From a virus, in the IMG/VR virus record IMGVR_UViG_3300027779_000011, positions 32,001 through 96,000 of that record: a stretch of DNA of 64,000 bases; one strand, 5' to 3'. Under the pieces are notes generated by a model. The model did no database searches. It saw only the letters and a program-made list of their open reading frames with translations, and was not told where the DNA came from. Of the stretch, positions 13,341 through 47,473 are shown one piece after another; position 1 is the first letter of the stretch, and each line of letters opens with the position of its first letter. Made by a program: the position numbers and the translations under genes.

Positions 13341-13379
13341 ATTCTGCTAATTTTATATCCTTTTTAAGGATGTTGCACA

Positions 13380-14537
13380 ATGAATATAGAAGATTATAAA
13401 AAAGTATATTCTGCTTTAAAATCAAAGGATGGTTTACTATCGTCAATTGATGATGTAATTGTAAAGCTTAATATAAAGTGTTACGATGCTGCCAAGCAAG
13501 CAATATTCGATGTAAGCCATAACAAGATGGTTATAAAGAAAGCAGAAGATGACTCAAAAAAATGCAGCTCCCTAAGGGAGTGCTTATCCTATGGCTCATA
13601 CATAGGTATAGTTCTTTCTTACCGTAAGCCGGATTTTTTAGATCTTTTCATAGAAGAGAATGAGGCTGTGCTTTCTAGGTTTCCAATTAAGAAATTCTTA
13701 GGCTCCGGTCAGGTTGGCGATGTATGGGAACTTGAAGATAATAAGATACTTAAAATATTTGATAACAGTGTTCAGAATGATATTGCCAAATATGAGCAAG
13801 CAAGGGAGGCGACAGGTGATCATGATGCTCCCAGTTATGATATATCTATATATGAATTAGGAAGGCTAAAGGTGCCTGATAAATACTTTGGAATAAAGAC
13901 ACCAAGCTTTTCTTATATAGGTCGCAATCCAGAAGATAAGCCGGAGTATGCGCCAGCATATGTTATACTCGAAAGGCTTACGACATATAGTGGGATAGTA
14001 AGGACATATACAAGAGGACTTGAAGGCTCATCTATTCTTCCAGAGCCTCTTGTTAAGTCTGGTCTGCCCAATGATAAATCATTTCAGGATGCAATACTTG
14101 GTAATGATAATCCGGATTTTATAGTAGATATATTTATGACATACATAGGGGATATTATAATACAGGGAAGTATCCGAGGCTGGTACGATAATACGACTAG
14201 TAACTATTCTGGAAGAGTCTATCCAATGGATCTCGACTCTATCCTATCTCAAAAATCTGGGTTACCATTCTTAGATAGACGGCAAAAGATATCCGCTTTG
14301 GCGAAAATGTATATGGAAGAGGTTTCCGCTGATCCATGGCAGCTTCCAGAACCTAAATTCTTTAATGCTTACATGTCAATATTGAAGTCAGCAAAGCCTG
14401 ACCTTCCAGATGACTGGCTATTTAGATTAGCAGAGTCTACTATATCAAAACTTGAGCTTGGTCATAAAGATGTTCATACTGGAAATGTAGGGATAAGAGC
14501 AGAGGGCGACTTAAGCTTTGTATATTACGACAGCTAA
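13380..14537 (+). CDS. protein kinase-like protein
   Basis: Gly loop LGSGQVGDVW, ILK, YVILERL hinge, HKDVHTGN catalytic loop, terminal YYD. Confidence 0.75.
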   Translation: MNIEDYKKVYSALKSKDGLLSSIDDVIVKLNIKCYDAAKQAIFDVSHNKMVIKKAEDDSKKCSSLRECLSYGSYIGIVLSYRKPDFLDLFIEENEAVLSRFPIKKFLGSGQVGDVWELEDNKILKIFDNSVQNDIAKYEQAREATGDHDAPSYDISIYELGRLKVPDKYFGIKTPSFSYIGRNPEDKPEYAPAYVILERLTTYSGIVRTYTRGLEGSSILPEPLVKSGLPNDKSFQDAILGNDNPDFIVDIFMTYIGDIIIQGSIRGWYDNTTSNYSGRVYPMDLDSILSQKSGLPFLDRRQKISALAKMYMEEVSADPWQLPEPKFFNAYMSILKSAKPDLPDDWLFRLAESTISKLELGHKDVHTGNVGIRAEGDLSFVYYDS

Positions 14538-14538
14538 G

Positions 14539-15276
14539 TTATAAATTTCTTACTATTGTATCTATCTGCCTAAAGGGGCTTATTAATTCTCGCGGAAAGG
14601 GTGGCGATGATCGATGATGTGCAACTAAGTCCCCCCATAATTCATTAAAATGCCTTCTGATGCCTTCATAATTCTTTTTTGAAATCAGCCTAAGCATCTT
14701 GCCTACGGCGGGAGGCAGATCACCTTCTTCGTATGCAGAGATTAACTTGCCCGCTACCGAGTCAGGACGGCCAAGGAAGTCTGTGCCACCCGCGCCAGCC
14801 ATTAACCTGAAAATAGGATCTTCTTCTCCGCGCTGAACCATGTAGTAAATGGTCGCATCGACATACTCTTCAAAGTTTTTCTGCGACATTGGTTCAATTT
14901 CAGAATATTTATCTGTGGCAGCCTCTTCCTCAAAGCTTACCGGCTCTTGTAATGATAGGGCAGGCGTTTCTTCTTGCGATTGTTCGACACCCATTTGTTC
15001 TAAGTTTTCCTCTTCCTCATTTGTAATCCTGCGTTCCGGCGGCCTCTCCGGTTGTATAGATGGAGAGAGGTATGAGTCTAGGGGCGACCATAGCCTTCTC
15101 TCTGTACCCTCCTCTAAATTGTCCTCTGGGCGTGTTGACGGGGGAAGTATTAACCCACTATTAGGCCCACCTACGATTACTCCCGGTCCAACTGCCGCTA
15201 TCTTTTGAAGCTCTTTATAGTTTCTATATGAAGCTATTTTGAACATGTATCTCTTGCTTAGGGCTATTCTTTTCAT
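14539..15276 (-). CDS. hypothetical protein, probable virion cargo
   Basis: Basic leader with KIA motifs; TACTAAT upstream; AGGA RBS. Confidence 0.65.
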   Translation of the reverse strand: MKRIALSKRYMFKIASYRNYKELQKIAAVGPGVIVGGPNSGLILPPSTRPEDNLEEGTERRLWSPLDSYLSPSIQPERPPERRITNEEEENLEQMGVEQSQEETPALSLQEPVSFEEEAATDKYSEIEPMSQKNFEEYVDATIYYMVQRGEEDPIFRLMAGAGGTDFLGRPDSVAGKLISAYEEGDLPPAVGKMLRLISKKNYEGIRRHFNELWGDLVAHHRSSPPFPRELISPFRQIDTIVRNL

Positions 15277-15346
15277 TTTTCTATTCCTACATTTATTAAA
15301 TGAATATTAGTAAATTTATGACTTTTTGATCGGGAGAAAAAGCTCT

Positions 15347-16009
15347 TCAACTTTTACCCCTATGCTTCATAATATTATGCATATTATTCTTATTTACATC
15401 TAAGAACTCCTTTATGTGTATTTCCTTTTCTGAGTCATCAGAGTTGAACCATATCCATGGATATTTTGTCTTATAATCATCTATTTCTTTTTGGATGCTC
15501 GAAAGATTTATTTTAATTTTTGATATGCTTATATCACTCAACTCAGGAATATCAATTTTAAGTTCACTTGCTATTTTTATTATTTCTAAATAATCTGAAC
15601 TCGTTACAGCGTTTTGGGTTTTACTATATAATACCTTGTATGCTTCCTTAGTATCACCATCCTCTTTCATTATTTTATCTGGATGAATCTTTAAAACTAT
15701 TTTTTTATATATTTTCTTCATATCTTCGGATAAGCTGTTTTTACTTTTAGATATCTCTACGCTCTCACTCCGTTCTTCATCACCTTTATCACGCCCCACT
15801 GTGTCATTCTGTCTTGAATCTTCAGAGAAATCTTCTCTACACATACTAGGTTCGTCTTCTATAATATTATTTTCTTCAACGTATTTAAACACCTCTTCTA
15901 AAAAAGTATTTTCATATTTTTCGTATAATGTTATAGAGTCTTCTAACTCCATTCGAAGTATCTCGTACTCCAGCATTATCTTTTTAGTCTTTCTTAGTGA
16001 GTATTCCAT
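15347..16009 (-). CDS. J-domain-containing protein
   Basis: KKIYKKIVLKIHPDK (HPD motif) within coiled coils. Confidence 0.7.
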   Translation of the reverse strand: MEYSLRKTKKIMLEYEILRMELEDSITLYEKYENTFLEEVFKYVEENNIIEDEPSMCREDFSEDSRQNDTVGRDKGDEERSESVEISKSKNSLSEDMKKIYKKIVLKIHPDKIMKEDGDTKEAYKVLYSKTQNAVTSSDYLEIIKIASELKIDIPELSDISISKIKINLSSIQKEIDDYKTKYPWIWFNSDDSEKEIHIKEFLDVNKNNMHNIMKHRGKS

Positions 16010-16075
16010 TTTTTACTTCCAGAATTATTAATGATTATATGTAATATAGTAATATTATAAACAAAGGAATCTAAA

Positions 16076-16264
16076 ATGAAAGAAAAGAATAAAAAAAATA
16101 TATTATCAAGATCAGCTTCATGGCTGGCTATATTCGTTGACGAATCATTACCAAGGTTTTTCTCAAGACTATTTTGTGTAATGGGACATATCTTTTCGGC
16201 ATTACTAATAATGATTTTAATATTTTTATTTTGCTTTATGGCTATAGATTATATTCTAGGGTAG
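16076..16264 (+). CDS. small membrane protein
   Basis: AAGGA RBS, hydrophobic C-terminus. Confidence 0.5.
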   Translation: MKEKNKKNILSRSASWLAIFVDESLPRFFSRLFCVMGHIFSALLIMILIFLFCFMAIDYILG

Positions 16265-16568
16265 AGTCACTACACTTATTGCCCAGATTCTGATAATTTG
16301 GAGAAAAGGAAATATCTTCTTCTATATAAATATATTCCAATCTATCTGGCGATATTGGGATTATAACTTCTCCAATGTCAAAGCCTTCGTTGTTATAAAT
16401 ATAAAACACTAAAAACAATATTATTGATAAAGATATATGAAAAATTTTATTATTGAATCTCATAATGTTATTAACACCTACACATCATTACTTACTATTA
16501 TTGAGCAATATTCATAGAATGAATAATTCTATATTAAACTATACAGATAATGATAGGAGTAATGTTTC

Positions 16569-16835
16569 TTGGCTAACTTAACGATCACAACTCTACTGCT
16601 TTTCTTGAACTTGCTTTTTGTGGCAATACTAATCGCAAGAGGATTTCTTAAAAAAGAAATATTGCCAGAAAAGATAGATATGTTAAATGAAAGAATCCTG
16701 ATACTATCTTCAAAAATAGACCATCTTGATAAAAGAATCGACTCTCAGGATAAAAAAATAGAAAGTGTGGAGGGCATCATGGCGATTATGGCTAATTCCC
16801 AATACCTTCTATACCCTGATGATTATTCTAATTAG
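16569..16835 (+). CDS. membrane-anchored coiled-coil protein
   Basis: AGGAG RBS, N-terminal TM plus heptads. Confidence 0.6.
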   Translation: MANLTITTLLLFLNLLFVAILIARGFLKKEILPEKIDMLNERILILSSKIDHLDKRIDSQDKKIESVEGIMAIMANSQYLLYPDDYSN

Positions 16836-16915
16836 CTATTCTTGAAAAAAGGTTAATATATTTTTTCAATACCATATACCAGTGTCAAAGCAACCCAGGA
16901 GGGGCGTAATGCCAA

Positions 16916-17275
16916 GTGTACTACAAGGCTCGTAAAATTGCATTAAATAACAACCATGATTACCACCTAGCCGCATTTGCAAAAAAAGGTGGCGGGTTTG
17001 TGTTTGGGACAAATAGTGATAAGTGTTCTGCAAAATTCAGAAGAACTCATCCAGATGGAAGTGTCGGGTATCATATGCACGCAGAAATGGCTTTGATTAA
17101 TAAGTTTAGCACCGGCTCGCTTTATGAAATACATGTGGCAAGGTTCAAAAAAAATGGAGATATGACTATGGCAAGACCATGCCTGTATTGTCAAAGGTTT
17201 CTTAAGAAGCATGGGGTAAAGAGGGTTCACTATACAGATTGGAACGGAGAATGGACCTGTATGAGAATTAAATGA
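16916..17275 (+). CDS. cytidine/dCMP-deaminase-fold protein
   Basis: HAE and PCLYC zinc-binding motifs. Confidence 0.8.
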   Translation: MYYKARKIALNNNHDYHLAAFAKKGGGFVFGTNSDKCSAKFRRTHPDGSVGYHMHAEMALINKFSTGSLYEIHVARFKKNGDMTMARPCLYCQRFLKKHGVKRVHYTDWNGEWTCMRIK

Positions 17276-17610
17276 AAAATTTTTTCCTAATCACAAGGAT
17301 TTATTTATCAAACTCTTTTGATATATTGTTTAATACATTTTTTATCTTAGTAGCGAAACTCCTTGGCAATCTTGACTCATATAAAGACTTTTACTGTTCA
17401 GCTATAATAAATGGGTTTGATCATGATCTCATTCCGGAATTATTAGAAGACCAGAAGATAAACTTAGAAGAGTGCGAAGATATTATTTATATTGCCATTT
17501 TATATAACACTATTCCGTTAGTAATTTTTCCGTCAATTAGGAATGAGGTTTTCGACAAGTGTTCTGAATCAATGATAAGAAAGTTTAGATGGAAATATCT
17601 TTCCAGATAA
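17272..17610 (+). CDS. hypothetical protein
   Basis: ATGA-coupled ORF. Confidence 0.55.
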
Positions 17611-17611
17611 A

Positions 17612-17687
17612 AACAATGTAGCTCAGTTGGCAGAGCGGCTGATTTGTAATCAGCAGGTCGTAGGTTCGACTCCTATCAATGGCTCCA
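17612..17687 (+). tRNA. tRNA-Thr(TGT) with defective acceptor stem (possible pseudo-tRNA)
   Basis: Intact D, anticodon and T arms plus CCA; acceptor 5' AACAATG vs 3' CAATGGC has 3 mismatches. Confidence 0.75.
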
Positions 17688-17725
17688 CAATGGAATAGAT
17701 TTGCAGAAGCAGTAATCAATATTTT

Positions 17726-17802
17726 GCACCCGTAGCTCAGCTGGATAGAGCATCGGCCTTCTAAGCCGAGGGTCATAGGTTCGAATCCTATCGGGTGTGC
17801 CA
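17726..17802 (+). tRNA. tRNA-Arg(TCT)
   Basis: Cloverleaf, loop CTTCTAA, CCA. Confidence 0.95.
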
Positions 17803-17820
17803 TTTAAAAAAGGAATAGTT

Positions 17821-18018
17821 ATGACAAATGAAATTGCATTAAATAAATGGTTAGAGTATAACAATGTTCAGCCAGAAGATTTAGATGAAGTTGTGCATGA
17901 TGCAGCAGCTTCAATGGCTTCAAACGCAAGTAATGAAGGATTGTCCGGACAGATTGATTTCTTGAAAATTATTGCCGGATGGAGTGATCAGGATATCAAA
18001 GAAGCAATTGATCCTTGA
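17821..18018 (+). CDS. hypothetical protein
   Basis: AAGGA RBS; start moved past tRNA. Confidence 0.65.
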   Translation: MTNEIALNKWLEYNNVQPEDLDEVVHDAAASMASNASNEGLSGQIDFLKIIAGWSDQDIKEAIDP

Positions 18019-18046
18019 CTTATAAAATTTAATCGGATACATACAA

Positions 18047-18262
18047 ATGAGGCTATTGATCCTTCTACTACCACTATCTATAGGATGCTCTTCGGCAATC
18101 GCTTATGATGTTCCAGAGCAAAAAGGATGCGTAATCGACAGGTGTAATGACAAAATATGTTCTGTCGAAACACCAGAGGGATGGGTGGAAATCAGCAGAA
18201 AGCGTGACTACTATGAGGGTAAGAGAATTGCTTGCCCAACATGGCTGGTGGAACCTACATAA
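18047..18262 (+). CDS. small Cys-containing lipoprotein/secreted protein
   Basis: Signal/lipobox LSIGC and further Cys residues. Confidence 0.6.
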   Translation: MRLLILLLPLSIGCSSAIAYDVPEQKGCVIDRCNDKICSVETPEGWVEISRKRDYYEGKRIACPTWLVEPT

Positions 18263-18462
18263 AAATTTATTGGGGGGCCGGAGAGTAATTAACTCTGGTA
18301 AAAATGTGATGGAAACAAAGAGTGTCATGTTTCTTTTAATTGCTGAAAAGTCAAACCGTACAGGCTGAGGGTGCTTCTTATAATAACAGCAAAGCCAATA
18401 AGCATCTGTAACAACCTCACTACCCCTCATATTTTTGATATACTTATATTGAAATATATAGT

Positions 18463-19296
18463 ATGTTTTATCTCATAAGCAACTCTAGTTTAATAACAGA
18501 AGAGATTATAAATAAAGTTAATTTTAAAAAAAATGATAAAATATTTTTATTTAATAGAAAACATGATAATCTTTTTAAGATACTATTAAAAAACTTTGAA
18601 AATAAATATAGTTTTAAACCAGACATTTATATGTGCCAAAGAGAAACTCTAATGAAGGATGAAACCGATTACTTCTATCGTGGTTCGTCCAGTCCCTTTA
18701 TAGGTAATGAGAATATAAACACATTCTACCTTATAGCGGGCGGAGCTTCAAAGAAAGTTGGATATGACTTCGATTATGATAAAAAAATCATAAGAAGACA
18801 GACTAAAATAGATTATAATAAATACAAAAGGCATCTGTTAAGTTTCGACTCTACAAGAAAAATACAATTCGTCAATTATAAAACAATGCTCCCCCCATAT
18901 GGAATGGGGCATAGTATATTTGATATAAAGTATTATGAGCCATATACTGGATTTATAATGCTTCTTTATATAGATAATAAATTTCCAAATGAAGACAAGA
19001 CTCTCATTGGGTTCACATGTTACTCAAGTCATACTAAAAAAAGACCAAAGGATATTCCTACCCACAGGCCAAAGCTTGAATGGGAGTTGTTTTTAAGCTA
19101 TTGCAAAAGCAGAAGTGTGAGCCTTCTTTACTCGAAAGAAGAAGATGGGGTTCTTATAGATTATGATGTTATCGCAGACTTTGATCCTCTGTTTGTAATT
19201 GACGGAACAATTAATGTGGAAGATAGGTACTTGATATCACCAGATAATATAAAAAAATCTGATGATTATTATGAAAGAACTAGCAATCTATTTTGA
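18463..19296 (+). CDS. GT29 (sialyltransferase)-like protein
   Basis: ISNS...IFLFN N-terminus; PYTGF...LIGF and H..KLE resemble S and VS sialylmotifs. Confidence 0.5.
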   Translation: MFYLISNSSLITEEIINKVNFKKNDKIFLFNRKHDNLFKILLKNFENKYSFKPDIYMCQRETLMKDETDYFYRGSSSPFIGNENINTFYLIAGGASKKVGYDFDYDKKIIRRQTKIDYNKYKRHLLSFDSTRKIQFVNYKTMLPPYGMGHSIFDIKYYEPYTGFIMLLYIDNKFPNEDKTLIGFTCYSSHTKKRPKDIPTHRPKLEWELFLSYCKSRSVSLLYSKEEDGVLIDYDVIADFDPLFVIDGTINVEDRYLISPDNIKKSDDYYERTSNLF

Positions 19297-24116: not shown

Positions 24117-25076
24117 ATGGATTATCATTTAAATAAGCTGAATTCGCTTTACTTGCACCTTATTAGTAACGGATATATATATGGTGCTAATAGAGTATTG
24201 AGCTTTGCTATGGATTACATATCCACAAAGCCTATGGTTAAAACCTCAGTAAGAAAGAATAAGCTTCTTCACCTGCTTGGTCCGTCAGGAGGTAGGTCTG
24301 TTGGGATAGTATCTCCGTATAAATCACTTAATTCTAGAAAAGAAAATAAAAATAAATACCAAGAGCTGGTCAGGGATATTCAAACCATGGGTCTTGATAC
24401 TCTTGGTAACTTTTGGCATGGTTCATGGGAAGAGGATGTTGTTATAGATGATGATGGCGAATCTACAGACAGAAGGAGTCGGGTACAACCAATAGTTGAC
24501 AGAATCTTTCGAGGAACATCTGATAGAGCTTTGGCGGAATTAAGCGATTTTTCAGATGTAAGCGAGTCTGAAGAGGATGAGTTAAAGTCTCTTTCTGATG
24601 ACTATGAGGAGAGTGATGGTGAACTAATTAGTTTAAAAATTAGGCAGTCGAAGATACCAGCATGGTATGAGAAAAAATATGAGGGTCCGATATTCGAAAA
24701 CAAAGAGGGTAATAAATATATAAAGATACCAGCTTCTGAGCGTAGTGTTATAATAAAAGATATTTCTTTTGAACAAATCAAAAGCCTTTCTCAAAAGTAC
24801 GAACAGGATGCTTTTATATATAGAAGCTTAGACGGCGTAACCGGAATGTACTGGACTGGAGGGGAAAATGCAGGGCATGTTGAGTTAGCAACCCTTCCAG
24901 AAGAGGACTCTTCGGAGCTAAACACTGGGCTTAGTATAGACACTGGAAGATTATACACCAAGCAAAGGAGTAGGGGGAATCTCCCTTCTTTTGAATATAA
25001 CTTCTGGCAAAGAGATATGATTCCTTATGATGGTGAAATCACAAAGGATAATATAGATGCTTCACTGCTAAGATGA
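24117..25076 (+). CDS. SAM lyase (T3 gp0.3 SAMase)-like protein with acidic insertion
   Basis: IVSPYKS, N..Y..L, GSWEE, SERS, YEQDAFIYRS and TGMYW match, in order, T3 SAMase VSAFRS, GCYRE, EEKT, WEQDCVLVYKS and AGLVY (T3 sequence recalled from memory). Confidence 0.6.
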   Translation: MDYHLNKLNSLYLHLISNGYIYGANRVLSFAMDYISTKPMVKTSVRKNKLLHLLGPSGGRSVGIVSPYKSLNSRKENKNKYQELVRDIQTMGLDTLGNFWHGSWEEDVVIDDDGESTDRRSRVQPIVDRIFRGTSDRALAELSDFSDVSESEEDELKSLSDDYEESDGELISLKIRQSKIPAWYEKKYEGPIFENKEGNKYIKIPASERSVIIKDISFEQIKSLSQKYEQDAFIYRSLDGVTGMYWTGGENAGHVELATLPEEDSSELNTGLSIDTGRLYTKQRSRGNLPSFEYNFWQRDMIPYDGEITKDNIDASLLR

Positions 25077-26727: not shown

Positions 26728-27122
26728 GGGGGCGTACTGGTTTCGACAGGGTAATAAGGTCGGATAGTGCAGGCGGTCTACGGTAACAGATGACCTAAAA
26801 ATTGTTACAAAAAACTATAATTGCCAATAACAATTATTATTACAGCAACGTCGCTTTAGCGGCTTAGTTGTCTGGGCCTCTAACGGCCTCGTCACCCAAT
26901 GTTAGATAACAGGTAGAGATCCTGCGAAATAAAAAAATCAAGATGGATACCTCATTTGTATCGGTGAAAGTCCGACTGTAGGGATGAGTGGACTTCTGAG
27001 GCTACATAGGAAGAGGGTTTTTGTGGCTACCTTGCTGATTTGGGAATACATCAGATAAGCTTGTGAATGACTTGAAGGAAGAGTTACTCTGGACGCGGAT
27101 TCGATTTCCGCCGCCTCCACCA
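26728..27122 (+). ncRNA. ssrA: tmRNA; tag (A)ANNNYYYSNVALAA at 26823-26867
   Basis: GGGGGCG/CGCCTCC acceptor with G3.U, GGTTTCGAC, TTCGATT T-loop, ACCA end, tag ORF ending ALAA-stop. Confidence 0.95.
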
Positions 27123-35253: not shown

Positions 35254-37218
35254 TTATGATGATATTATCTTATCGGTATGCTTCACATTTCTAGAAGCGA
35301 CAAGCTTTAGCCCGCCACCTGCTTCTCCAACTGGCGTTTGAACTGGTACGTTTTGAGATATGGGTAGCGGAATAACGTTAGATGTAGCGGCTGGTTTCAA
35401 GGGTGGTAGTCCTGCGCTTATCATATCTTCTAGTGCGGAGCTGTCGCTAGCATTATCCTGTGTTCTTCGCGCCTCCATTTCCTGATCTGTTAATCGGATG
35501 TTTGATAACACGGGAGCGCCTTCAGATGTGGACATTGAAGAAGCCCACTTTCTGCTAGCGTTAGCGAACGCTATCTGAAGAACGGTGTCGTATGCTGAGG
35601 ATAACCTGTCCTTTATACCTGTTTCAATTCCCATTATAATTATACTAGTAAATATATCTATGCAGACTGCCACAGCGGTTACCACACCTGCCGTTAGTAA
35701 ACCCGCCAGTTCAAGAACTATAAATATTATATCGAGTACAGCCTGAACTGTATTTAATATAACTTGGTACATGTTATGTTGGAGATCTCTGAGACCCTTT
35801 GCATACTTGGCCAAAACAAGCTGCCTAGATGGTTCATCCGAGCTTTCTTGAAACTTAGAGCCGCACTCTTCAGCTGTTTCGTTATACTTAAGAACCTTCA
35901 TACCGCTTAGGCTAATTCCTGCTTTACTTGCAAGTGGAGATACGTCATCTTGAAGAGCCTTCCATCCATAATAGACTCCATCCACTATTGCCCCGACACT
36001 AAATATAAGGCCTAAGAATGGGAGAACTTTTGCTCCATATTTCATTATTAATTTTATTATTGCGATGACACCTCCAGTGAGAAAGGCCCAAGTCGCTGCC
36101 GAAGCATCCTTTATCCACTCCCATAGCTTACATGCTGCGGTACTTATCCCATCCCAAACTGTTCCTAGACCTTCTGTTGTAATATCATATGCGTCTGAAA
36201 TGAAATCGGTTGCGGGGCCAGCTAACTCAACGGCGCCATCCCAAGTATCTTCAGCTACATCTGCAACATAACTAACGGCATCATCAGCCCACTGAGGCCA
36301 TGCGGTCTTGCTTAATGAATCTCCATTTCCGGCTGTCTTTAATAGCTCTGCATCGTTTCCATTCATATATGATTCTTTATTTATGGGACCCCTGAATGAC
36401 TGTGATGATTCAAATATTTCATCAAAAGATTTTTCCCCACTCCCAACAGCGTCTACGAACTCCTTAAGATCACTATTTAGAATAGACCTTCCACTACTTC
36501 CATACTTTTTAATATAATCTAGCTCAAGATAAGTTTTTAAACATTGTAGGGCATATGAGTTTGAATAATTTGAATAATACTTTTTATCTGATGCTATTTT
36601 GATAACGCTGTTTTCTGCAAATGACTTCTTGTCAAAGCCTTTTAGTATCATTTTATTTTCTGTTATTTTATATGTAGCAATTATTACATCATGATTACTT
36701 GAGTAGTAAGTATCGTGTCTTTTTGATATAGCCCTCTTTCTTATTTGACTAATTCTTTTTACACTTGCAGTTGATTCATCAATACATTCTTTATTCTCTT
36801 CGATAGTGTCGAAAACAGACGGGTCTTGTTGATATTGATCTTCAAGAGCGGGCAAAGCACCTGGGTCTGCCTTGGACTTATTTAATATGTCCTGAGCTCC
36901 ATTCTTTCCTACATTTCCATCCATTTTTTTACAAAATCCAGTTATTCCCTCAAGACCTGAGGCAAAAGCTGCGGAGGTTGCTTTTTCTTCATGCTTGTTA
37001 AACTCAGCCATAACATCCCACCACTCTCTTGCTTCGGGGCTCATATCGTCAACATCAACGCCTTCTGGCATAGGGAATAAGCTTCCTTCATCTCCAGTGG
37101 TTGAAACCGCAGCTTTGCCGGTCCCTCTAATGAGAGCAGCTTCTTGCGCTTTTTTGGATATGAATATCCTCTTGCTTTGCTTTTCAGAATATTCTTTGTG
37201 TTTTTTAGATATTATCAT
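35254..37218 (-). CDS. probable virion/ejected protein with hydrophobic helical segments
   Basis: Repeated K-x-A motifs (SKKA, RKRA, IKIA, LKTA, SKTA); two long hydrophobic segments. Confidence 0.65.
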   Translation of the reverse strand: MIISKKHKEYSEKQSKRIFISKKAQEAALIRGTGKAAVSTTGDEGSLFPMPEGVDVDDMSPEAREWWDVMAEFNKHEEKATSAAFASGLEGITGFCKKMDGNVGKNGAQDILNKSKADPGALPALEDQYQQDPSVFDTIEENKECIDESTASVKRISQIRKRAISKRHDTYYSSNHDVIIATYKITENKMILKGFDKKSFAENSVIKIASDKKYYSNYSNSYALQCLKTYLELDYIKKYGSSGRSILNSDLKEFVDAVGSGEKSFDEIFESSQSFRGPINKESYMNGNDAELLKTAGNGDSLSKTAWPQWADDAVSYVADVAEDTWDGAVELAGPATDFISDAYDITTEGLGTVWDGISTAACKLWEWIKDASAATWAFLTGGVIAIIKLIMKYGAKVLPFLGLIFSVGAIVDGVYYGWKALQDDVSPLASKAGISLSGMKVLKYNETAEECGSKFQESSDEPSRQLVLAKYAKGLRDLQHNMYQVILNTVQAVLDIIFIVLELAGLLTAGVVTAVAVCIDIFTSIIIMGIETGIKDRLSSAYDTVLQIAFANASRKWASSMSTSEGAPVLSNIRLTDQEMEARRTQDNASDSSALEDMISAGLPPLKPAATSNVIPLPISQNVPVQTPVGEAGGGLKLVASRNVKHTDKIISS

Positions 37219-39251: not shown

Positions 39252-40877
39252 ATGTCTTTTAAAAATGTAGACCTAGGAAGAGATGCTAGGGAGAAAATGA
39301 AAAAGGGTCTTGACATTCTTGCAAATGCGGTAAAGGTCACTCTTGGGCCGCGTGGCAGACACGTTGCAATACAGAGAGAGTATGGCCCTCCGCAAATTAC
39401 AAAAGATGGTGTTACTGTTGCCAGATCTATAAACCTATCTAATAGTGTTGAGGATATGGGTGCTCAGCTTATAAAGTCTGTTGCCGCAACAACAAATGCC
39501 GTTGCTGGCGACGGCACTACAACTGCAACTGTCTTGGCTCAATATATTTATAATGATGGAGCCAAGATGGTTGAAGCTGGCCATAACCCTGTTTTGATAA
39601 AAAGGGGAATCGACATTGCCGTAAAGAATGTTTCGAATTCGCTAAAAGAACTCAGTGTTCAGCTTACAGATGGCGATAGCATAAAAAGTGTTGCCTCAAT
39701 ATCTGCAAATAATGATATGGAGCTAGGTAGCTTAATTGCAGATGCGGTAATGAATGTTGGAAACGATGGAATGATATCAGTAGAAGACTCTGCCGGAACA
39801 GATACCTCGGTATCATACACCGATGGGCTAAAGATAGATAGGGGGTATTTGTCTCCAATGTTTATAACCAATCCAGAGAAGCTTTTGGTCGAGATGGAAA
39901 ACCCATTAATTCTTTGCTTTGATGGTAATATGGGCTTTCATAACTTCAATAAAGAGTATCTTCCGTTATTCAAAAAAGTTTCAGAATCAGGGAGAAAGGT
40001 TCTTGTTATAGCCAAAGAGTTTGATCATGAGGTTATGTCGACTTTCATTTTGAATAATTCAAAGGGCTCTATATCTTCATGCCTAATTCGGGCTCCTGGG
40101 TTTGGTGACTTCAGAAGGGATATGCTTGGAGATATAGCGGCAGCATGTGGTGGAAAGTTGTTCACAGATGACTCTGGAGTTGGACTTTCGGAATCAGAGG
40201 TAGATGATTTGGGTACGGCAAGGAGAATCGTAGTCTCTAGATTCGAGGCAACTATTGTTGACGGTGGAGGTTCTATGGATGATATAGAACGAAGAGTATC
40301 TGCATTAAAAGCCCAGCTTGATTCGGATATGTTAGAAGGCTTTGAAATAGCATCTCTGAAGAGTAGGATTTCAAAACTTTCTGGTGGAGTTGCAGTAATA
40401 AAAGTTGGTGGATCAACTGAGAGTGAAATGAAAGAGAGAAAAGATAGGGTCGAGGATGCTATAAACGCTGTTAAGGCTGCTATCGAAGAAGGCGTTGTCC
40501 CAGGAGGGGGTGCTTCTTTGATTCACTGTGTTAATTCGGTCGAGTTATTTGAGTCATCAAAGGAGTACATGAGTTTGCTACCGGAAGAGAAGATTGGGGT
40601 GGGCATAGTCAAGAACTCTCTTTCTGCTCCATTTAGACAGATAATGATAAACTCCGGAATGGAAAATCAGTATATGAGAATTATGGATAAGATACTTCTG
40701 AAGAAAGGGTTTTCTGGGTATAACGCTTTGTCAAATACTTTTTCAAATAATATGTTAAAAAGCGGAGTCATAGACCCCACAAAGGTAGTTAGAACTGCAA
40801 TAGTAAATGCGGCATCTGCAAGTGGAATTATGCTAACCACAGAAGTTGCAATATCATCAGCAGATGAACAAAAATAA
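39252..40877 (+). CDS. groEL: chaperonin GroEL
   Basis: TLGPRGR, ITKDGVTVA, GDGTTTATVLA, PGGG, IDPTKV. Confidence 0.96.
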   Translation: MSFKNVDLGRDAREKMKKGLDILANAVKVTLGPRGRHVAIQREYGPPQITKDGVTVARSINLSNSVEDMGAQLIKSVAATTNAVAGDGTTTATVLAQYIYNDGAKMVEAGHNPVLIKRGIDIAVKNVSNSLKELSVQLTDGDSIKSVASISANNDMELGSLIADAVMNVGNDGMISVEDSAGTDTSVSYTDGLKIDRGYLSPMFITNPEKLLVEMENPLILCFDGNMGFHNFNKEYLPLFKKVSESGRKVLVIAKEFDHEVMSTFILNNSKGSISSCLIRAPGFGDFRRDMLGDIAAACGGKLFTDDSGVGLSESEVDDLGTARRIVVSRFEATIVDGGGSMDDIERRVSALKAQLDSDMLEGFEIASLKSRISKLSGGVAVIKVGGSTESEMKERKDRVEDAINAVKAAIEEGVVPGGGASLIHCVNSVELFESSKEYMSLLPEEKIGVGIVKNSLSAPFRQIMINSGMENQYMRIMDKILLKKGFSGYNALSNTFSNNMLKSGVIDPTKVVRTAIVNAASASGIMLTTEVAISSADEQK

Positions 40878-42040: not shown

Positions 42041-42052
42041 TAGGATTAAATA

Positions 42053-42325: not shown

Positions 42326-42349
42326 ATAAAAATCAAAAACTTATTCTGC

Positions 42350-42383
42350 ACCCATAGTAAAATTACTTTACTATGGGTTTTTT
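42350..42383 (+). terminator. rho-independent terminator
   Basis: CCCATAGTAAA/TTTACTATGGG plus T6. Confidence 0.85.
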
Positions 42384-42417
42384 ATTAATTTTTTTATTAA
42401 AAGCATAGGGATTAATA

Positions 42418-42837
42418 ATGATAAAGCTATCTGCATTTGAATCAGCAAGAATAACAGACCCTTCCAGTGGAAAAGAGGTTAAGGTTTCCACCACAGTCAG
42501 GATGCAGTATAGGTGGCTATATAGAAATTATGAGCCTGAGTTTCAAAGCATGAGAAATAATATTCTTAATGAGATAATAGGAAAAGATTATTCTGGTAGC
42601 TCCGGTGATGGCAATATGGTGCATAGGTTTAAGCTTGGAAGCTCTAGCATTGAATCAAAGGAAAGGGAGATTGCTGAGATCAGAAAGTTTTCTCCATCAT
42701 CAGAAAGAGCTAGGGCTTTTAATTTCTTTATAGCAGTAGAGCGAAGTGATGGAATTTATATATTAGCCGTAAAGCAAAGCTGGAAGTCTCCTAAGTATAC
42801 CAAAACTTATGGTTATACAAAGAAAAGCAGAACTTAA
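42418..42837 (+). CDS. hypothetical protein (MIKLS leader)
   Basis: ORF after terminator and TATTAAT. Confidence 0.65.
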   Translation: MIKLSAFESARITDPSSGKEVKVSTTVRMQYRWLYRNYEPEFQSMRNNILNEIIGKDYSGSSGDGNMVHRFKLGSSSIESKEREIAEIRKFSPSSERARAFNFFIAVERSDGIYILAVKQSWKSPKYTKTYGYTKKSRT

Positions 42838-42883
42838 GGCTCTACTAATTTAATATAAAGTATTGTATTTTAATGAGGTTATA

Positions 42884-43546
42884 ATGAATAAAAAGACTGC
42901 ACAATTAAAGCCGCCAAACTGGGACCCCGATATTCTGCCAAAGTTAAAGCAGATAAACTATGGTTCTCAAGAGGGTGAGATAAAGAGAATTTTAAACGAT
43001 CCAAGTAAAATTATATTTGACGCAACCTCTCCATCGGATAATCCCAATGCTTCTGCTTGGGTCACAACCGATGATTTGAAAGATGGAAAAATTGATGCGG
43101 TTCATATAAACGCAACAAAGATTCCAAAACCGGGGGATGGCTTTGAACAAATGGCCAATCAAATAATCGCATCAATTTCAGCATTGTTATCTCATGAAGT
43201 CGGACACATTGAAGACTTCAGAGAGGAGCTTTATGAATCAGGACAAGACCCGTTTCCGGGTGGAGAGGCTGTAGCTGAAGAAGCACAAAGACAACAGGAG
43301 CAAAGAGCAATGTTAGCATTAGAACAAATGGCGTCAGCAAAGAGTACTTTGGTGAAGCTTTCAAATGATCTAGATGGTTCTGGTAATGGAAAGATTGCAG
43401 ATAGTATAGATAAATTATTATATGTTATCTCAAAAGAGGAAGTCAGTATAAATAAGACGGCCATACAAAAAGATGATGACGTGTTGGCAGAAGAAGTGTT
43501 TATGTTTAATGACTCATTTTATAAGAAACCATTCGGAAGGATGTGA
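42884..43546 (+). CDS. zincin-like metallopeptidase with cargo motif
   Basis: HEVGH; N-terminal KKTA; C-terminal LVKLSNDLDGSG...ADSID; GAGG RBS. Confidence 0.7.
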   Translation: MNKKTAQLKPPNWDPDILPKLKQINYGSQEGEIKRILNDPSKIIFDATSPSDNPNASAWVTTDDLKDGKIDAVHINATKIPKPGDGFEQMANQIIASISALLSHEVGHIEDFREELYESGQDPFPGGEAVAEEAQRQQEQRAMLALEQMASAKSTLVKLSNDLDGSGNGKIADSIDKLLYVISKEEVSINKTAIQKDDDVLAEEVFMFNDSFYKKPFGRM

Positions 43547-43568
43547 TGATTGGCAAATATTCAAATAA

Positions 43569-45863
43569 ATGGGTGATATAAAAACCATGAAGAAGAAAAC
43601 CGTAGAACAAGAGAATGAGCTTGGAGATACTCCGACTGATGCGATAGCTGGTATGCACATGCCAGATCCCGAAGGTTCGTGGAGAGGCTCCGATCCGGGA
43701 GAGAATAGCTATACTTATGATAAGAAGCAGATTGCATACCATGAAAGACGCCTGACCGGGAGAAAAAGAAAGGAAAATGGTTTATCAAAAGGGGCAAGAG
43801 GTCTTTTGGATATGCAAACGGAACAGGGAAAGTCCGGTGAATATTTTGAAGAGGATGAGACCGGGTTATTTGGCAATGAATCTCCTGAAGATTTACCTAC
43901 TAATAAACCAGATAGAAATATAAGATATGAATCATCTACCGGCAGCTCAGACGTAGATCTGTCTGATTTTTCGTTCTTGGGGTTTGGAAAAGAATCAAAA
44001 AGGAATTATGAAATGAACAATGAATTAATCAAGCTATCAAACTTATTAGACGAGATCGGAAGCGTTAATGCTGCGGATAGAATAGATCTTATGATTATAA
44101 AGGAAGCGGTAACTACGCCTTCTGGGTGGAGTTCACGTCCTAGCTCTAGTGCCTCTACGTCTCAGCAGAATCTTCATCGCGCTTGTACTGCATATTATAC
44201 AGCAATAGATACTATGGAGTCTCAGAATTATTACAGTGGAGGCGACGAAGGTGCTGCCGAGGATGTTATAAATGCAGTATGGGCAAGATATAATGCCTTT
44301 GACGGCTGGGGTGATAACGATGATGCACTTCCAAATGCACTTATTAGCGCAGCTCGTTCGGCTGAGCCAAGTCTTACATCAAGACCTGAGGGTTATTCTT
44401 CATGGTTTGAAGCTGTTGTAAAAGAAGGGGACGTTAATTTTTCCAACGGAAACTCAGCCTTCTACGGTAATTCTGACGGATTTGCAATAGACGCCAAGAA
44501 TTTTTGGGGGAAAATGAAGAGTGCAATCAAAAAAAACAGGGCAGCCGAAACAGCAGCCGAAACAGCAGCGGCAACAGGAGGAACCGCTCTCCAAGATGAT
44601 ATGGACCCTGAAGATAAGATGGGAGATGCTCCCTTTTTCTACCTTCTTACTGAAGCACAAAAGACCACTGCTGAACAGCCCGAGGCAGATTTCTTAAGAC
44701 TAGAATGGGGAGCATCTGAAACACCCCCTCAGTGGAGAATACAGTTTAGAAAAATGCGTGATCTTTCTGTGTGGCTAGAGGCCAATTCAGAAAAGAGAAG
44801 CCTTGTAACGGAAGAGTGGATTGAAGAATTATCAGAACTTGGGAATGGGGCATACAAGGATGGGTTTCAATGGACTACGGGAGCTGTGACAGAGTATGCC
44901 AACAAAGGAAAGATTCCGCATCCAGGGAAGGGATACGCTGCTTATTACGACTCTTGGGAAGGGTGGACTGACTCATGGACTGTAATGTATGACCTTCTGC
45001 GTAACCAAGAAACAGTAAAGGCCTCTGGCGAATTTGCACAACAACAAGCAGAAGGAAGATCGGGCGGCGGCGGCGGTGGTGGTGGCAGTAGAGCCGTTGC
45101 TTCTATCGTTGATTTATCAGGTGGAGTAATAACTGATTCTGATACTGGTAACAAATTCAGAACATGGGTCTATTCAGATGCTGCGAGGGCTAGGTGGGCC
45201 TCTAGTAATAACTTTGATAGTTCTCACACAGTGTTTAATTCCAGAGCTATGAGGAGTGCTTGGGCGACTTATGGTAATCAGTATAAACAATATTTGCAAG
45301 TCGCTGGACCGGACGAGTTACTTGCTGGCTCCGGAACCGGAAGTGTGGCAAGGCGAGAATCTGTGGATGATTTACTTGGGGAGACAGCTCCACAAGCACC
45401 TCCAGTTGCAGCTCCACAAGCACCTCCAATTGCATCTCCACAAGCACCTCCAGTTGCAGCGACTCAGCCAGAAGCAGGGTGGACTATCGAGAATGTTGGT
45501 TCCGCAGTAGATGAGTTATATAGAGGGGTTCGGATTGGCAAAAACAGTGAAAGGAAAGTAAGAAGAACGACTGCTAGAGCACTAAGAGATTTGGGCCGTG
45601 GTTCTACCCAGGAGATTCTAAACTACTTGTCTGGAAGAACACCTCCATCATCTGCTACGATGAGATACAGCGAAGTTTATAACGCTCTAATGGACCTAAA
45701 GGAACAGCTATCAGGAGGCCGCAAATCAAGGGCGGCTAGGATTGATAGGATTAATGCCTTGTCGAAAACCAGTGACGATGTCATAGATACTTATAAGAAA
45801 GCCGCAAACAACCGAAGAAGAAGGGTGTCTGAGGATAGAAAAAAGCTTTACGATAGTATCTGA
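43569..45863 (+). CDS. large probable virion-internal protein
   Basis: NELIKLSNLLDEIG..AADRID...IKEA motif; G-rich and APQAPP linkers; basic C-tail. Confidence 0.7.
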   Translation: MGDIKTMKKKTVEQENELGDTPTDAIAGMHMPDPEGSWRGSDPGENSYTYDKKQIAYHERRLTGRKRKENGLSKGARGLLDMQTEQGKSGEYFEEDETGLFGNESPEDLPTNKPDRNIRYESSTGSSDVDLSDFSFLGFGKESKRNYEMNNELIKLSNLLDEIGSVNAADRIDLMIIKEAVTTPSGWSSRPSSSASTSQQNLHRACTAYYTAIDTMESQNYYSGGDEGAAEDVINAVWARYNAFDGWGDNDDALPNALISAARSAEPSLTSRPEGYSSWFEAVVKEGDVNFSNGNSAFYGNSDGFAIDAKNFWGKMKSAIKKNRAAETAAETAAATGGTALQDDMDPEDKMGDAPFFYLLTEAQKTTAEQPEADFLRLEWGASETPPQWRIQFRKMRDLSVWLEANSEKRSLVTEEWIEELSELGNGAYKDGFQWTTGAVTEYANKGKIPHPGKGYAAYYDSWEGWTDSWTVMYDLLRNQETVKASGEFAQQQAEGRSGGGGGGGGSRAVASIVDLSGGVITDSDTGNKFRTWVYSDAARARWASSNNFDSSHTVFNSRAMRSAWATYGNQYKQYLQVAGPDELLAGSGTGSVARRESVDDLLGETAPQAPPVAAPQAPPIASPQAPPVAATQPEAGWTIENVGSAVDELYRGVRIGKNSERKVRRTTARALRDLGRGSTQEILNYLSGRTPPSSATMRYSEVYNALMDLKEQLSGGRKSRAARIDRINALSKTSDDVIDTYKKAANNRRRRVSEDRKKLYDSI
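45387..45458 (+). repeat. 24-bp tandem repeat x3 (APQAPPVA)
   Basis: GCTCCACAAGCACCTCCAGTTGCA-like units. Confidence 0.9.
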
Positions 45864-45907
45864 TGCTTATATTTAATAACTTGAATTACCAAAGAGGAAT
45901 CTAAAAA

Positions 45908-47473
45908 ATGCAAAACGAATTAATCAAACTTTCAAAGACCTTAAGCGGTCTTGGCCATAAGAAGCACTCCAGTATAGTCAGAGGCCTTGGAGTACCAAGC
46001 GTCAGCATTATGCTTTCAAAGTTTGCAGGAGCTCCAAACCCAGGACTTATAAAGCTCATCAATGGAAATGCTGCTAATAGCAAAAGTCAGGTAGGAATTA
46101 ATCTCAGCTATAAAGGCAATGACGATCTTGGAGAGTGGGCAACGGGTTCGGATGAAATATCCATTGCAACCCAGGAAGTGCTGACAGACTTTATAGATAT
46201 GGTAAAAGGGATAAATGCTGATACCCCAGAAAAAGCCTATGAAACACGCGCAAAGATAAAGGCTATCACGGTAAGTGTTTATACTGATACCGCAGGTAAT
46301 GATGCTAATAACGAAGCTCGTAGTCAAAGGCGAGCAGATATAATTGTTGCAGCCCTAAGGCAAGATGTTCCTGGGGTAACCTTCACAGGGAAGGGTATGG
46401 GAGAGGATGCGGAAAAGAATAAGAGATACCTTAACTTCCAAATTACCGAAATAGAAGCTAGGCAAGCTGTAATGGATTCCCATGTAGTGGCCCTTAATGA
46501 TGGTGGAACAGCGTACTGGTTTCTAAGACAAGGTAACTACTTTGTTGTAGATGTTACCAAGCCAGATGCCCATAGAGCCGCTACCAAAGCCGAATCTGCA
46601 ATCCAGAAAGACAGCACTGGTAAAGGGACCGGTGATGCTGGAAATGCTCTTGTTTATTTTGGAGCAGAGGCTGCTATTGCAGCTGGGGCAATTAGCCCGG
46701 TAGAAAATCCAGCCGGAACAATTTATATGGTAGATAGCGCGAAGCTTACGGGTGCCGCAGCCATGATGAGCTTAGAGGATACAATTCAGTCACCAACAAC
46801 TCCATCTGAAAGAGCCACTAAGCTTGGTGCGTCTGCCGAGGCAGGACAGGTTGCTAGGACCGAAAGTGAAGCTTGGCCAGCAGAGGTCGTAAAAGATTCA
46901 ATAAGAAGACTCCTTGAGATCAGAGAACCATTGGAGATAGACCCAGATGGAGGTGGCTCACAGCCCGCTGCTCAAGCCTTAGCTGCACATCGCGTTAGGC
47001 GCAATATGAGGAGAATGTTCAAGACTAATATGGAAAAAAACCCTGACGGGTTTGACCGTACTGTTCAGAAATTGGCTCAGGAAATGACAGCTAGTCCAAA
47101 CTTTGTATATAATCCAGATGAAGGTGCCGCAGGATCTAACATAGGAATGGTGTTTATGGCGGCGATGCAATCAGAGAGTGTGGCCCAGTCTACTGGTGGC
47201 TCTGCTTCGTCAAGAGCAAAGAACTCAAGAAAGGGTAGGCGAAGAATGGAGAAGGCTAAAGCCAGAGCACGAAAAAGGTCTGATAGAGAGAGATATGATA
47301 ACCCGCTAATTCCAAACTTTATGGAGCGTGGCCAGAAGTTTAACGAGAGAGGCGAGAGAAAGGCTTCCTCAAGCACAATAGAAAGCCTTCATAAGATTTC
47401 AATGAAAAAGTCATCTGCAAAGTCTGCCGCTAAGAAAAGAAGAGAAAGAATTAAAAAAGAAAATATGCGATAA
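45908..47473 (+). CDS. OmpA-like peptidoglycan-binding domain protein with cargo leader
   Basis: NELIKLSKTLSGLG leader; YTD..G....N...SQRRA....L...GKGMGE. Confidence 0.7.
   Translation: MQNELIKLSKTLSGLGHKKHSSIVRGLGVPSVSIMLSKFAGAPNPGLIKLINGNAANSKSQVGINLSYKGNDDLGEWATGSDEISIATQEVLTDFIDMVKGINADTPEKAYETRAKIKAITVSVYTDTAGNDANNEARSQRRADIIVAALRQDVPGVTFTGKGMGEDAEKNKRYLNFQITEIEARQAVMDSHVVALNDGGTAYWFLRQGNYFVVDVTKPDAHRAATKAESAIQKDSTGKGTGDAGNALVYFGAEAAIAAGAISPVENPAGTIYMVDSAKLTGAAAMMSLEDTIQSPTTPSERATKLGASAEAGQVARTESEAWPAEVVKDSIRRLLEIREPLEIDPDGGGSQPAAQALAAHRVRRNMRRMFKTNMEKNPDGFDRTVQKLAQEMTASPNFVYNPDEGAAGSNIGMVFMAAMQSESVAQSTGGSASSRAKNSRKGRRRMEKAKARARKRSDRERYDNPLIPNFMERGQKFNERGERKASSSTIESLHKISMKKSSAKSAAKKRRERIKKENMR

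What the first reader, a model, noticed from the sequence alone, without database searches (positions are those of the whole stretch)
13345..47473. Shared leader and K-x-A/S motifs on unrelated proteins: a putative head-packaged effector cargo system
Seen: NELIKLSNLLDEIG..AADRID..IIKEA (43569), NELIKLSKTLSGLG...LSKFA (45908), TLVKLSNDLDGSG..IADSID...INKTA (42884, at the C-terminus), and looser LNKLNSLYLHLISNG...VKTS (24117) and YKKVYSALKSKDG...IKKA (13380). K-x-A/S sites also follow basic leaders in 14539 (FKIA, QKIA), 35254 (SKKA, RKRA, IKIA, LKTA, SKTA), 42418 and 42884 (KKTA). The attached domains differ: kinase, SAM-lyase-like, HExxH peptidase, OmpA-like domain, TM protein. Known: T4 and phiKZ-like phages target internal proteins to proheads through propeptides removed by the prohead protease. 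Inference: the helical motif is a capsid-targeting signal and K-x-A/S the cleavage site, which would define a modular set of injected enzymes.
Basis: partly seen in the sequence, partly recalled or inferred. Interest (0 to 1): 0.75.

Follow-up and report, generated by a model that had tools for sequence, protein, structure and literature searches.

The report
Portable address tag, marine jumbo phage
Three neighbouring genes share a real 32-residue two-helix tag that thousands of unrelated marine giant-phage proteins also carry, and it most likely docks them to one common partner, perhaps the assembling phage head, though the proposed K-x-A/S cut site and two of the five examples fail testing.

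Summary
The core observation is real. The proteins at window 42884, 43569 and 45908 share a ~32-residue helix-turn-helix tag. A profile finds 7 clear copies plus one half copy in this 158.7-kb piece of a ~288-kb phage, against a best E of 0.029 in shuffled controls. The "looser" examples (24117, 13380) are not members. Plain K-x-[A/S] is not enriched.

The tag is not private to this genome: 2,412 protein clusters carry it, mostly at the extreme N-terminus of otherwise unrelated, unannotated proteins. A related 317-kb phage has 15 copies, and another contig has 11 tagged genes in a row. Between relatives the tag stays in place while the body behind it is replaced. Pfam, PHROGs, NCBIfam, the PDB and the searched literature do not cover it.

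Head targeting is plausible but unproven. Two tagged genes lie in the head-gene block, and one cargo is a peptidoglycan-binding domain with no signal peptide. The tag ends in hydrophobic-x-K-x-[A/S], a pattern enriched 2.7-fold and conserved in head-block proteins. Against a simple cleavable leader: internal, C-terminal, multi-copy and stand-alone tags exist.

Other first-stage readers flagged the same tag on other windows of this genome.

The parts
42884..43546 (+). 220-aa HExxH (zincin-like) protein carrying the tag near its C-terminus. A TTG at 42863 is an alternative start; public gene calls use the ATG at 42884.
   Evidence: HExxHxED is invariant in 4 orthologues at 30-67% identity, and all keep the tag at the same place. 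The AF2 model is too weak to classify the fold.
43343..43438 (+). Tag copy 1 (two-helix hairpin), followed by INKTA at the tag's end
   Evidence: Profile E 6e-15 (own profile) and 6e-6 (public profile). INKTA-type ending is kept in the G002, L015 and P0163 orthologues.
43569..45863 (+). 764-aa protein of unknown function with an internal tag
   Evidence: no family. The G002 orthologue (1052 aa, 28% identity over the N-terminal 240 aa) has a decayed tag at the same position.
44019..44114 (+). Tag copy 2, residues 151-182 of the 764-aa protein
   Evidence: Profile E 3e-15 and 3.5e-8
45908..47473 (+). 521-aa protein: N-terminal half tag, OmpA-like peptidoglycan-binding domain, no signal peptide, basic C-terminus
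   Evidence: No orthologue in the syntenic region of relative G002.
45914..45967 (+). Tag copy 3, first helix and turn only; the second helix has degenerated
   Evidence: Public-profile E 0.16, residues 2-20. It shares the heptapeptide NELIKLS with copy 2.
46244..46459 (+). OmpA_C-like domain (residues 113-184)
   Evidence: Pfam PF00691 at 22.6 bits, below its cut-off of 27.2. Seven OmpA-domain PDB sequences and five NCBIfam peptidoglycan-anchor families align to the same stretch, each weakly.
42843..42849 (+). TACTAAT word 41 nt upstream of the zincin start: candidate promoter element shared with head-block genes
24117..25076 (+).
   Evidence: No score with any profile
13380..14537 (+).
   Evidence: No score with any profile
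35254..37218 (-). 654-aa protein named for its K-x-A sites; no tag; 8 hydrophobic-x-K-x-[AS] sites against 2.9 expected (p 0.01, not significant over 229 tests)

Best explanation
The shared peptide is a self-contained docking tag of about 32 residues: helix, K-G turn, helix, with consensus close to LIKLAxHLDxxGxxKEADxLDxIIKKA. Marine jumbo phages attach it to many otherwise unrelated proteins, usually as the very first residues. Shown: it is a conserved, portable module with a sharp end, and in related phages the tag stays at a genomic slot while the protein body behind it is replaced. Inferred: all tagged proteins bind one common phage-encoded partner through the tag. The most likely destination is the assembling head, so that tagged proteins are packed and later delivered with the DNA. 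That would be a functional analogue of the T4 capsid-targeting sequence. Further inferred: the tag's last residues (I-I-K-K-A type) and its first helix (L-I-K-L-A) fit a hydrophobic-x-K-x-[A/S] pattern. That pattern is selected in head-block proteins and may be the prohead protease site, so N-terminal tags could be trimmed off after loading.
For: Module: 2,412 cluster representatives match at E<=1e-3 and 230 at E<=1e-10. In 123 N-terminal copies D13, G16 and D25 are 100% conserved, L5, L12, K19, E20 and A21 are >=95%, and conservation collapses after column 32. AF2 gives a helical hairpin at pLDDT 88.7. Copies within this genome differ freely at synonymous sites, so the peptide is under selection. 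Unrelated bodies: only 4 Pfam hits among 92 carriers, and the bodies of an 11-gene tagged array share no similarity. Cargo exchange: in the g134061 slot the relative G002 (MCP 84% identical) has the same N-terminal tag with an unrelated body. In the g128023 slot the N-domain and tag are kept, the body is replaced, and the gene is split exactly at the tag's start. Head link: tagged g134061 lies just upstream of the terminase and portal genes, and g128023 lies in the same block. TACTAAT precedes 3 tagged genes directly and several head-block genes, including a conserved site in G002. One cargo is an OmpA-like peptidoglycan binder with no signal peptide, and one public carrier has LysM. Protease-code link: 87% of N-terminal tags end in hydrophobic-x-K-x-[AS]. 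The pattern is K-specific and 2.7-fold enriched in the head block (z 9.9), with 14 sites in the protein that holds the prohead-protease domain. 26 of 54 sites persist as the pattern in G002 orthologues against 17 of 107 for control patterns (p 2.4e-5).
Against: There is no virion proteome and no cultured relative, so packaging is untested. Portal, major head protein and the protease protein carry no tag. Tags also occur internally (58 of 206), C-terminally (20 of 206), in 2-3 copies per protein, and as stand-alone 35-46-aa genes. In the zincin family the tag is a stable internal part across orthologues. None of this fits a simple cleavable leader. Most tagged genes lie outside the head block, and the window trio sits between a chaperonin gene and nucleotide-metabolism genes. 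Bodies of public carriers are not enriched in the K pattern. The TACTAAT link to tagged genes is weak in G002, at 1 of 7 sites.
Confidence: 0.4

Rival explanations
1. Self-associating hairpin. Tags bind each other, so proteins with 2-3 tags act as cross-linkers and single-tag proteins as clients. Together they would build a multi-protein body, such as an intracellular assembly site or an internal head body, rather than docking to one dedicated receptor.
For: About a third of the best public carriers have 2-3 tags, often one at each end. The two-copy protein folds as four helices with pTM 0.70. Stand-alone tag genes could act as caps or competitors. The tag has an amphipathic, TPR-like residue pattern.
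Against: No multimer prediction or contact map could be made. The invariant polar residues (D13, K19, E20, D22, D25) look more like a specific interface than a generic helical bundle. In this genome every carrier has a single tag.
Confidence: 0.2
2. Host-directed binding module. The tag docks diverse phage effectors onto one conserved host protein or structure during takeover, with no role in the virion.
For: Arrays of small, mostly acidic, fast-changing tagged proteins lie away from structural genes. Many tagged genes neighbour metabolic or early-looking genes.
Against: Two tagged genes are embedded in the head block at conserved slots. The tag ending matches a pattern selected in head proteins. 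A peptidoglycan-binding cargo with no export signal is hard to place in the cytoplasm.
Confidence: 0.15
3. Chaperonin-recruitment tag. The hairpin directs client proteins to one of the two phage-encoded Cpn60 chaperonins.
For: The window trio lies 2 kb downstream of a Cpn60 gene, and this arrangement is conserved in L015, G002 and G004/G005. PMC10052503 cites a report that a T4 head-protein N-terminus directs proteins to GroEL.
Against: G003, with 21 tags, showed no Cpn60 match, although it is only 67% complete. Most tag clusters are far from the chaperonin genes. Very small tagged proteins and tag-only genes are unlikely folding clients.
Confidence: 0.1
4. Ordinary paralogy. The three window genes are diverged duplicates, and the shared stretch is only their best-conserved remnant with no common role.
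For: The genes are adjacent, and copies 2 and 3 share an identical heptapeptide.
Against: There is no similarity outside the tag. The tag sits at different positions in the three proteins. It occurs on thousands of unrelated proteins, and bodies are exchanged behind a fixed tag.
Confidence: 0.05

Closest known systems
T4 capsid-targeting sequence (CTS) of the internal proteins IPI-III (PMC3012670; Mullaney and Black 1996 as cited in PMC10052503)
   Same: A conserved peptide at the N-terminus is the only thing shared by a diverse, fast-changing set of proteins. Genes are clustered, and cargo differs between related phages. In T4 the CTS loads proteins, including foreign ones, into the scaffolding core.
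   Different: There is no sequence relation. The tag here is a 32-residue folded hairpin, where the T4 CTS (from my own knowledge) is about ten residues. It is also found internally, C-terminally, in multiple copies and alone. The candidate cut site is Lys-based, not Glu-based. Packaging is not shown here.
N-terminal propeptides of phiKZ/SPN3US-type giant phage head and ejection proteins, cut by the gp175/gp245 prohead protease (PMC10052503, PMC5694885)
   Same: Both are jumbo phages with many head-associated proteins of unknown function. In both, a short recognition pattern recurs many times in head proteins and in the protease itself, and propeptides are cut at several sites.
   Different: Those propeptides are 20-254 residues long, are not one shared module, and are cut after Glu in an x-x-E type motif. 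The pattern here centres on Lys. The protease domain matched only phrog_18299, inside a 1125-aa protein.
P22 scaffolding protein C-terminal helix-loop-helix coat-binding domain (from my own knowledge; not retrieved by any search here)
   Same: A small, autonomous helix-turn-helix with a basic second helix that is sufficient to bring attached cargo into a procapsid.
   Different: It is C-terminal and belongs to one protein, not a family-wide tag. No sequence or fold match was found.
Tetratricopeptide (TPR) unit
   Same: The residue pattern of helix A, the Gly turn and the E-A start of helix B resemble one TPR unit. The only PDB look-alikes are designed TPR proteins.
   Different: It is a single unit, not a repeat array. 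No Pfam TPR model matches, and the E-values are not significant.

Membership tests
T4-type capsid-targeting sequence / internal-protein system | One conserved peptide shared by otherwise unrelated proteins, at the N-terminus | tested here: met
   128 of 206 public copies are N-terminal and the bodies are unrelated. However, 78 of 206 are internal or C-terminal.
T4-type capsid-targeting sequence / internal-protein system | Sequence relation to the T4 CTS or the internal-protein families | tested here: not met
   No PHROG, Pfam or NCBIfam family matches any carrier, and tblastn against 50,697 phage records found nothing.
T4-type capsid-targeting sequence / internal-protein system | Peptide followed by a prohead-protease cleavage site and removed on maturation | tested here: inconclusive
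   87% of tags end in hydrophobic-x-K-x-[AS], and that pattern is enriched and conserved in head-block proteins. No cleavage data exist.
T4-type capsid-targeting sequence / internal-protein system | Carriers are present inside proheads or virions | not testable with these tools
   No cultured relative and no proteome.
T4-type capsid-targeting sequence / internal-protein system | Cargo differs between related phages at conserved loci | tested here: met
   The g134061 and g128023 slots compared with G002; the window trio compared with L015 and G002.
phiKZ/SPN3US prohead-protease propeptide system | Cleavage motif ending in Glu | tested here: not met
   The control pattern with E in place of K is not enriched (ratio 1.07) and is poorly conserved (18%).
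OmpA_C-like peptidoglycan-binding domain (PF00691), for the 45908 protein | Match above the family's gathering score | tested here: not met
   22.6 bits against a cut-off of 27.2.
OmpA_C-like peptidoglycan-binding domain (PF00691), for the 45908 protein | Core TD..G....N..S.RRA peptidoglycan-binding signature aligned to solved OmpA domains | tested here: met
   Seven PDB OmpA-domain sequences and five NCBIfam anchor families align to residues 113-184.
Zincin metallopeptidase, for the 42884 protein | Conserved HExxH with a further acidic ligand | tested here: met
   HExxHxED is invariant in 4 orthologues, and G002 has HEQDH.
Zincin metallopeptidase, for the 42884 protein | Zincin fold | tested here: inconclusive
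   AF2 pLDDT is 52.7. The strand-strand-strand-helix layout is compatible but unusable for a fold search. No PDB sequence match.
TPR repeat | Match to a TPR profile, or tandem units | tested here: not met
   No Pfam TPR hit. There is a single unit, and only non-significant designed-TPR hits.

The most novel reading that the evidence does not exclude
Marine jumbo phages share a universal 32-residue address tag that loads a rapidly exchangeable arsenal of proteins into the capsid for delivery with the DNA. The tag would be read together with a Lys-centred prohead-protease code (hydrophobic-x-K-x-A/S) unlike the Glu-based codes of T4 and phiKZ-like phages. Any protein behind the tag would then be a candidate injected effector, giving a sequence-only way to list the injected proteins of uncultured giant phages.
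Probability: 0.3. Interest if true: 0.85.

Novelty: new variant of a known kind. Interest (0 to 1): 0.68.

Why it matters
Most genes of marine giant phages have no known function. If it works as a docking tag, a conserved, easily recognised tag on thousands of otherwise unrelated proteins groups them into one functional class and points to a single partner that can be found by pull-down. If the partner is the prohead, the tag would reveal which proteins uncultured jumbo phages inject. It would also define a new protease specificity and offer a natural handle for loading foreign proteins into large capsids. The exchange of bodies behind a fixed tag is a clear example of modular evolution at the level of protein parts.

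Tried and rejected
- DNA and protein searches of GenBank phages found no relative and no tag; the terminase is only about 25% identical to Bacillus siphophage terminases.
- The word-indexed homologue searches returned only the query for the tag region and for the OmpA-like protein.
- A literature search for the motif strings found nothing relevant, and the jumbo-phage review does not describe such a tag.
- The ESM Atlas gave only unnamed short clusters.
- Foldseek against the PDB and BFVD gave nothing below E about 1.
- I looked for the earlier-noted early boundary word near the tagged genes at 19-31 kb and found none, probably because I searched the wrong stretch; I dropped that line.
- The idea that cargo bodies avoid K-x-[AS] was rejected: the depletion is shared by K-x-[GT] and K-x-[DE], so it is generic periodicity.
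- Divergent-tag status for g21186, window 24117 and window 13380 was rejected; g20600 is marginal only.
- The zincin fold search was abandoned because the model was poor.
- Window 35254 as a tag carrier was rejected.
Full report
WHAT IS THERE

The window is bases 32001-96000 of a 158,716-bp virus record. The same genes also lie on a 287,985-bp metagenome contig. The element is therefore part of an uncultured marine jumbo phage, and the held genome is incomplete.

Three consecutive plus-strand genes carry a shared peptide:
- the zincin-like gene at 42884-43546,
- the 764-aa gene at 43569-45863,
- the 521-aa gene at 45908-47473.

The peptide is near the C-terminus in the first, at residues 151-182 in the second, and at the N-terminus in the third, where only the first helix survives.

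IS IT MORE THAN CHANCE?

A profile built from the copies, iterated on the six-frame translation of the whole genome, converges on eight ORFs, all real plus-strand genes. Three are in the window. The others are at genome 19492, 19754, ~30777, 128023 and 134061.

An independent profile made from 149 public carriers recovers seven of them at E 1e-6 to 1e-17, and the 45908 copy only as a half motif (E 0.16). Twenty shuffled six-frame sets give a best E of 0.029.

Window 35254, 14539 and 42418 have no tag.

THE K-x-A/S CLAIM

Plain K-x-[A/S] occurs 568 times against 535 +/- 20 expected (z 1.6), and none of the eight named proteins stands out.

The longer pattern [LIVMF]-x-K-x-[AS] is enriched (220 against 149, z 6). 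The enrichment is specific to Lys: R, E, D, Q, N, T, S and G controls give ratios of 0.9-1.13. It is concentrated in the late block beyond 126 kb (83 against 30.5, z 9.9), against 1.16-fold elsewhere.

The most enriched proteins are all head-block proteins:
- the 1125-aa protein that contains the prohead-protease domain, with 14 sites against 2.9 expected,
- g126457, g148312 and g150147.

The window's 45908, 43569 and 35254 proteins rank next (p 0.003-0.01). That is not significant over 229 tests, and part of the count comes from the tag itself.

Against the 84%-identical-MCP relative G002, 26 of 54 head-block sites persist as the pattern, often with different residues filling it. For control patterns the figure is 17 of 107 (Fisher p 2.4e-5). 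So a Lys-centred pattern is under selection in head-block proteins.

THE TAG IS A WIDESPREAD MODULE

An exhaustive profile search of 1.84 billion representatives finds 2,412 proteins at E<=1e-3 and 230 at E<=1e-10. Among the best 149 there are 206 copies: 128 N-terminal, 58 internal and 20 C-terminal.

In 123 N-terminal copies the peptide starts at Met1. D13, G16 and D25 are invariant, and L5, L12, K19, E20 and A21 are >=95%. Conservation collapses after column 32 into a variable, acidic stretch. 87% end in hydrophobic-x-K-x-[AS].

A natural two-copy protein folds with pLDDT 88.7, each tag as helix 2-14, a K-G turn, then a second helix.

The following do not cover the tag:
- Pfam, PHROGs and NCBIfam,
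- PDB sequences,
- Foldseek against the PDB and BFVD,
- the ESM Atlas,
- GenBank phages,
- the literature that I could search.

The only look-alikes are designed TPR proteins at non-significant scores.

Among 92 longer carriers only four have any Pfam domain: one LysM and three zinc ribbons.

GENOMIC BEHAVIOUR

- One 277-kb contig has 11 tagged genes within 8 kb, with mutually unrelated, mostly acidic bodies.
- G002 (316,664 bp, 94% complete) has 15 tags, 10 of them in one cluster. G003 (223 kb) has 21.
- Within this genome the copies differ freely at synonymous sites, so they are old and kept by selection on the peptide.

G002 is a true relative: MCP 84%, portal 73% and Cpn60 58% identical, and terminase 72%. 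Its gene order matches this genome's.
- In the slot of g134061, just upstream of the terminase genes, G002 has a 160-aa gene with the same N-terminal tag but an unrelated body.
- g128023 is one gene here: N-domain, internal tag, body. In G002 the N-domain gene (46% identical) stops exactly where a separate gene begins with the tag, and that gene's body is unrelated.
- The window trio corresponds in G002 to a zincin with an internal tag, a 120-aa N-tagged gene, a 268-aa gene, and a 1052-aa orthologue of the 764-aa protein whose tag has decayed. There is no OmpA-like gene.
- In L015 (Cpn60 56% identical) the zincin orthologue again keeps the tag, and the next gene is a new body with an N-terminal tag.

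The exchangeable unit is therefore what lies behind the tag.

WHAT THE CARGOES ARE

- **Zincin:** it has an invariant HExxHxED motif in four orthologues. Its fold could not be modelled.
- **45908 protein:** it has an OmpA_C-like peptidoglycan-binding core at residues 113-184, supported weakly but consistently by Pfam, seven PDB entries and five NCBIfam families. Its N-terminus is the half tag, not a signal peptide.
- **764-aa protein:** it matches nothing.

MECHANISM

Shown: a conserved, autonomous, portable hairpin with exchangeable bodies.

Inferred: it docks its carriers to one common partner. I rate the assembling head as the most likely destination (about 0.4), for these reasons:
- Two tagged genes sit at conserved slots inside the head-gene block.
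- The candidate promoter word TACTAAT is about 7-fold concentrated in intergenic DNA. It directly precedes three tagged genes and several head-block genes, and one head-block site is conserved in G002.
- A peptidoglycan-binding cargo without an export signal makes sense if it is delivered from the particle.
- Both ends of the tag fit the Lys pattern that is selected in head-block proteins, including the protease protein.
- The whole arrangement parallels the T4 internal proteins, a diverse set sharing only a capsid-targeting sequence (PMC3012670), and the multi-site propeptide trimming of SPN3US (PMC10052503).

Against this reading:
- There are no virion data.
- Portal, MCP and the protease protein carry no tag.
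- Many tags are internal, C-terminal, multiple or stand-alone.
- In the zincin family the tag is a stable internal element.
- Most tagged genes are not in the head block.
- Public cargo bodies show no excess of the Lys pattern.

Rivals are tag-tag self-association building a multi-protein body, a host-directed binding module, and chaperonin recruitment. The last is suggested by the trio's conserved position next to a Cpn60 gene and by the T4 GroEL precedent cited.

EARLIER NOTES

Other first-stage readers flagged the same tag, the cargo-slot idea and the Lys pattern on other windows of this genome. I tested these independently:
- The cargo-slot idea holds for two slots.
- The Lys pattern holds for the head block.
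- Of the listed 'degenerate' head-block tag copies, none reached significance with my profiles.

VERDICT

The tag is an undescribed, widespread module. It is best filed as a new variant of the known 'shared targeting peptide on diverse cargo' kind, and its destination is still to be shown.

Noticed in passing
window 48143-49986: A PurZ-like adenylosuccinate synthetase (phrog_1211, E 1.6e-67) is followed by a DHH phosphoesterase (phrog_4771). This pairing suggests that the phage may replace adenine by 2-aminoadenine in its DNA.
   Followed up: no
window 39252-40877 and genome 121491-123140: Two diverged phage-encoded Cpn60 chaperonins (36% identical to each other). Both are conserved in relatives G002 and G004.
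   Followed up: partly
window 26728-27122: A phage-borne tmRNA gene (tag peptide ANNNYYYSNVALAA), plus six tRNA genes in the window at 5029, 10186, 12494, 17726, 20008 and 20919.
   Followed up: no
window 54089-57692: A MoxR-type AAA ATPase, a DUF2201 vWA/metallopeptidase-like protein and an M16 (pitrilysin-type) peptidase lie in a row. The M16 family includes enzymes that remove targeting presequences, so it is an alternative candidate for tag processing.
   Followed up: no
genome 144944-148321 (outside the window): A 1125-aa protein carries the prohead-protease domain at residues ~103-213 and 14 hydrophobic-x-K-x-[AS] sites, 10 of them kept in the G002 orthologue. This suggests a large self-processing head protein.
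   Followed up: partly
window 42843, 10819 and 27152; genome 19379, 19441, 30739, 125870, 132651, 132658, 142401, 149692, 156563: The word TACTAAT is concentrated in intergenic DNA, in one orientation, 20-160 nt upstream of start codons. It is a candidate promoter element. The site before the orthologue of g149745 is conserved in G002.
   Followed up: partly
genome 128023-129147 versus G002 58531-59792: There is a gene fusion/split exactly at the first codon of the tag. It is one gene here and two overlapping genes in the relative. A third form (P0013) has three tags.
   Followed up: yes
genome 141299-144889 (outside the window): Between portal and MCP lie proteins with weak phosphatase (DSPc) and methyltransferase plus DUF192 signatures. 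These are enzymes in a position usually held by head-internal proteins.
   Followed up: no
window 60712-64000 and onward (genome 92712-97787); genome 107626-114783: Two giant ORFs of 1691 and 2385 residues have no PHROG match.
   Followed up: no
L007/L010 1-8500: Eleven genes in 8 kb each begin with the tag, interleaved with untagged genes including a NUDIX gene. One is a 46-aa tag-only gene overlapping the next gene by 14 nt.
   Followed up: partly
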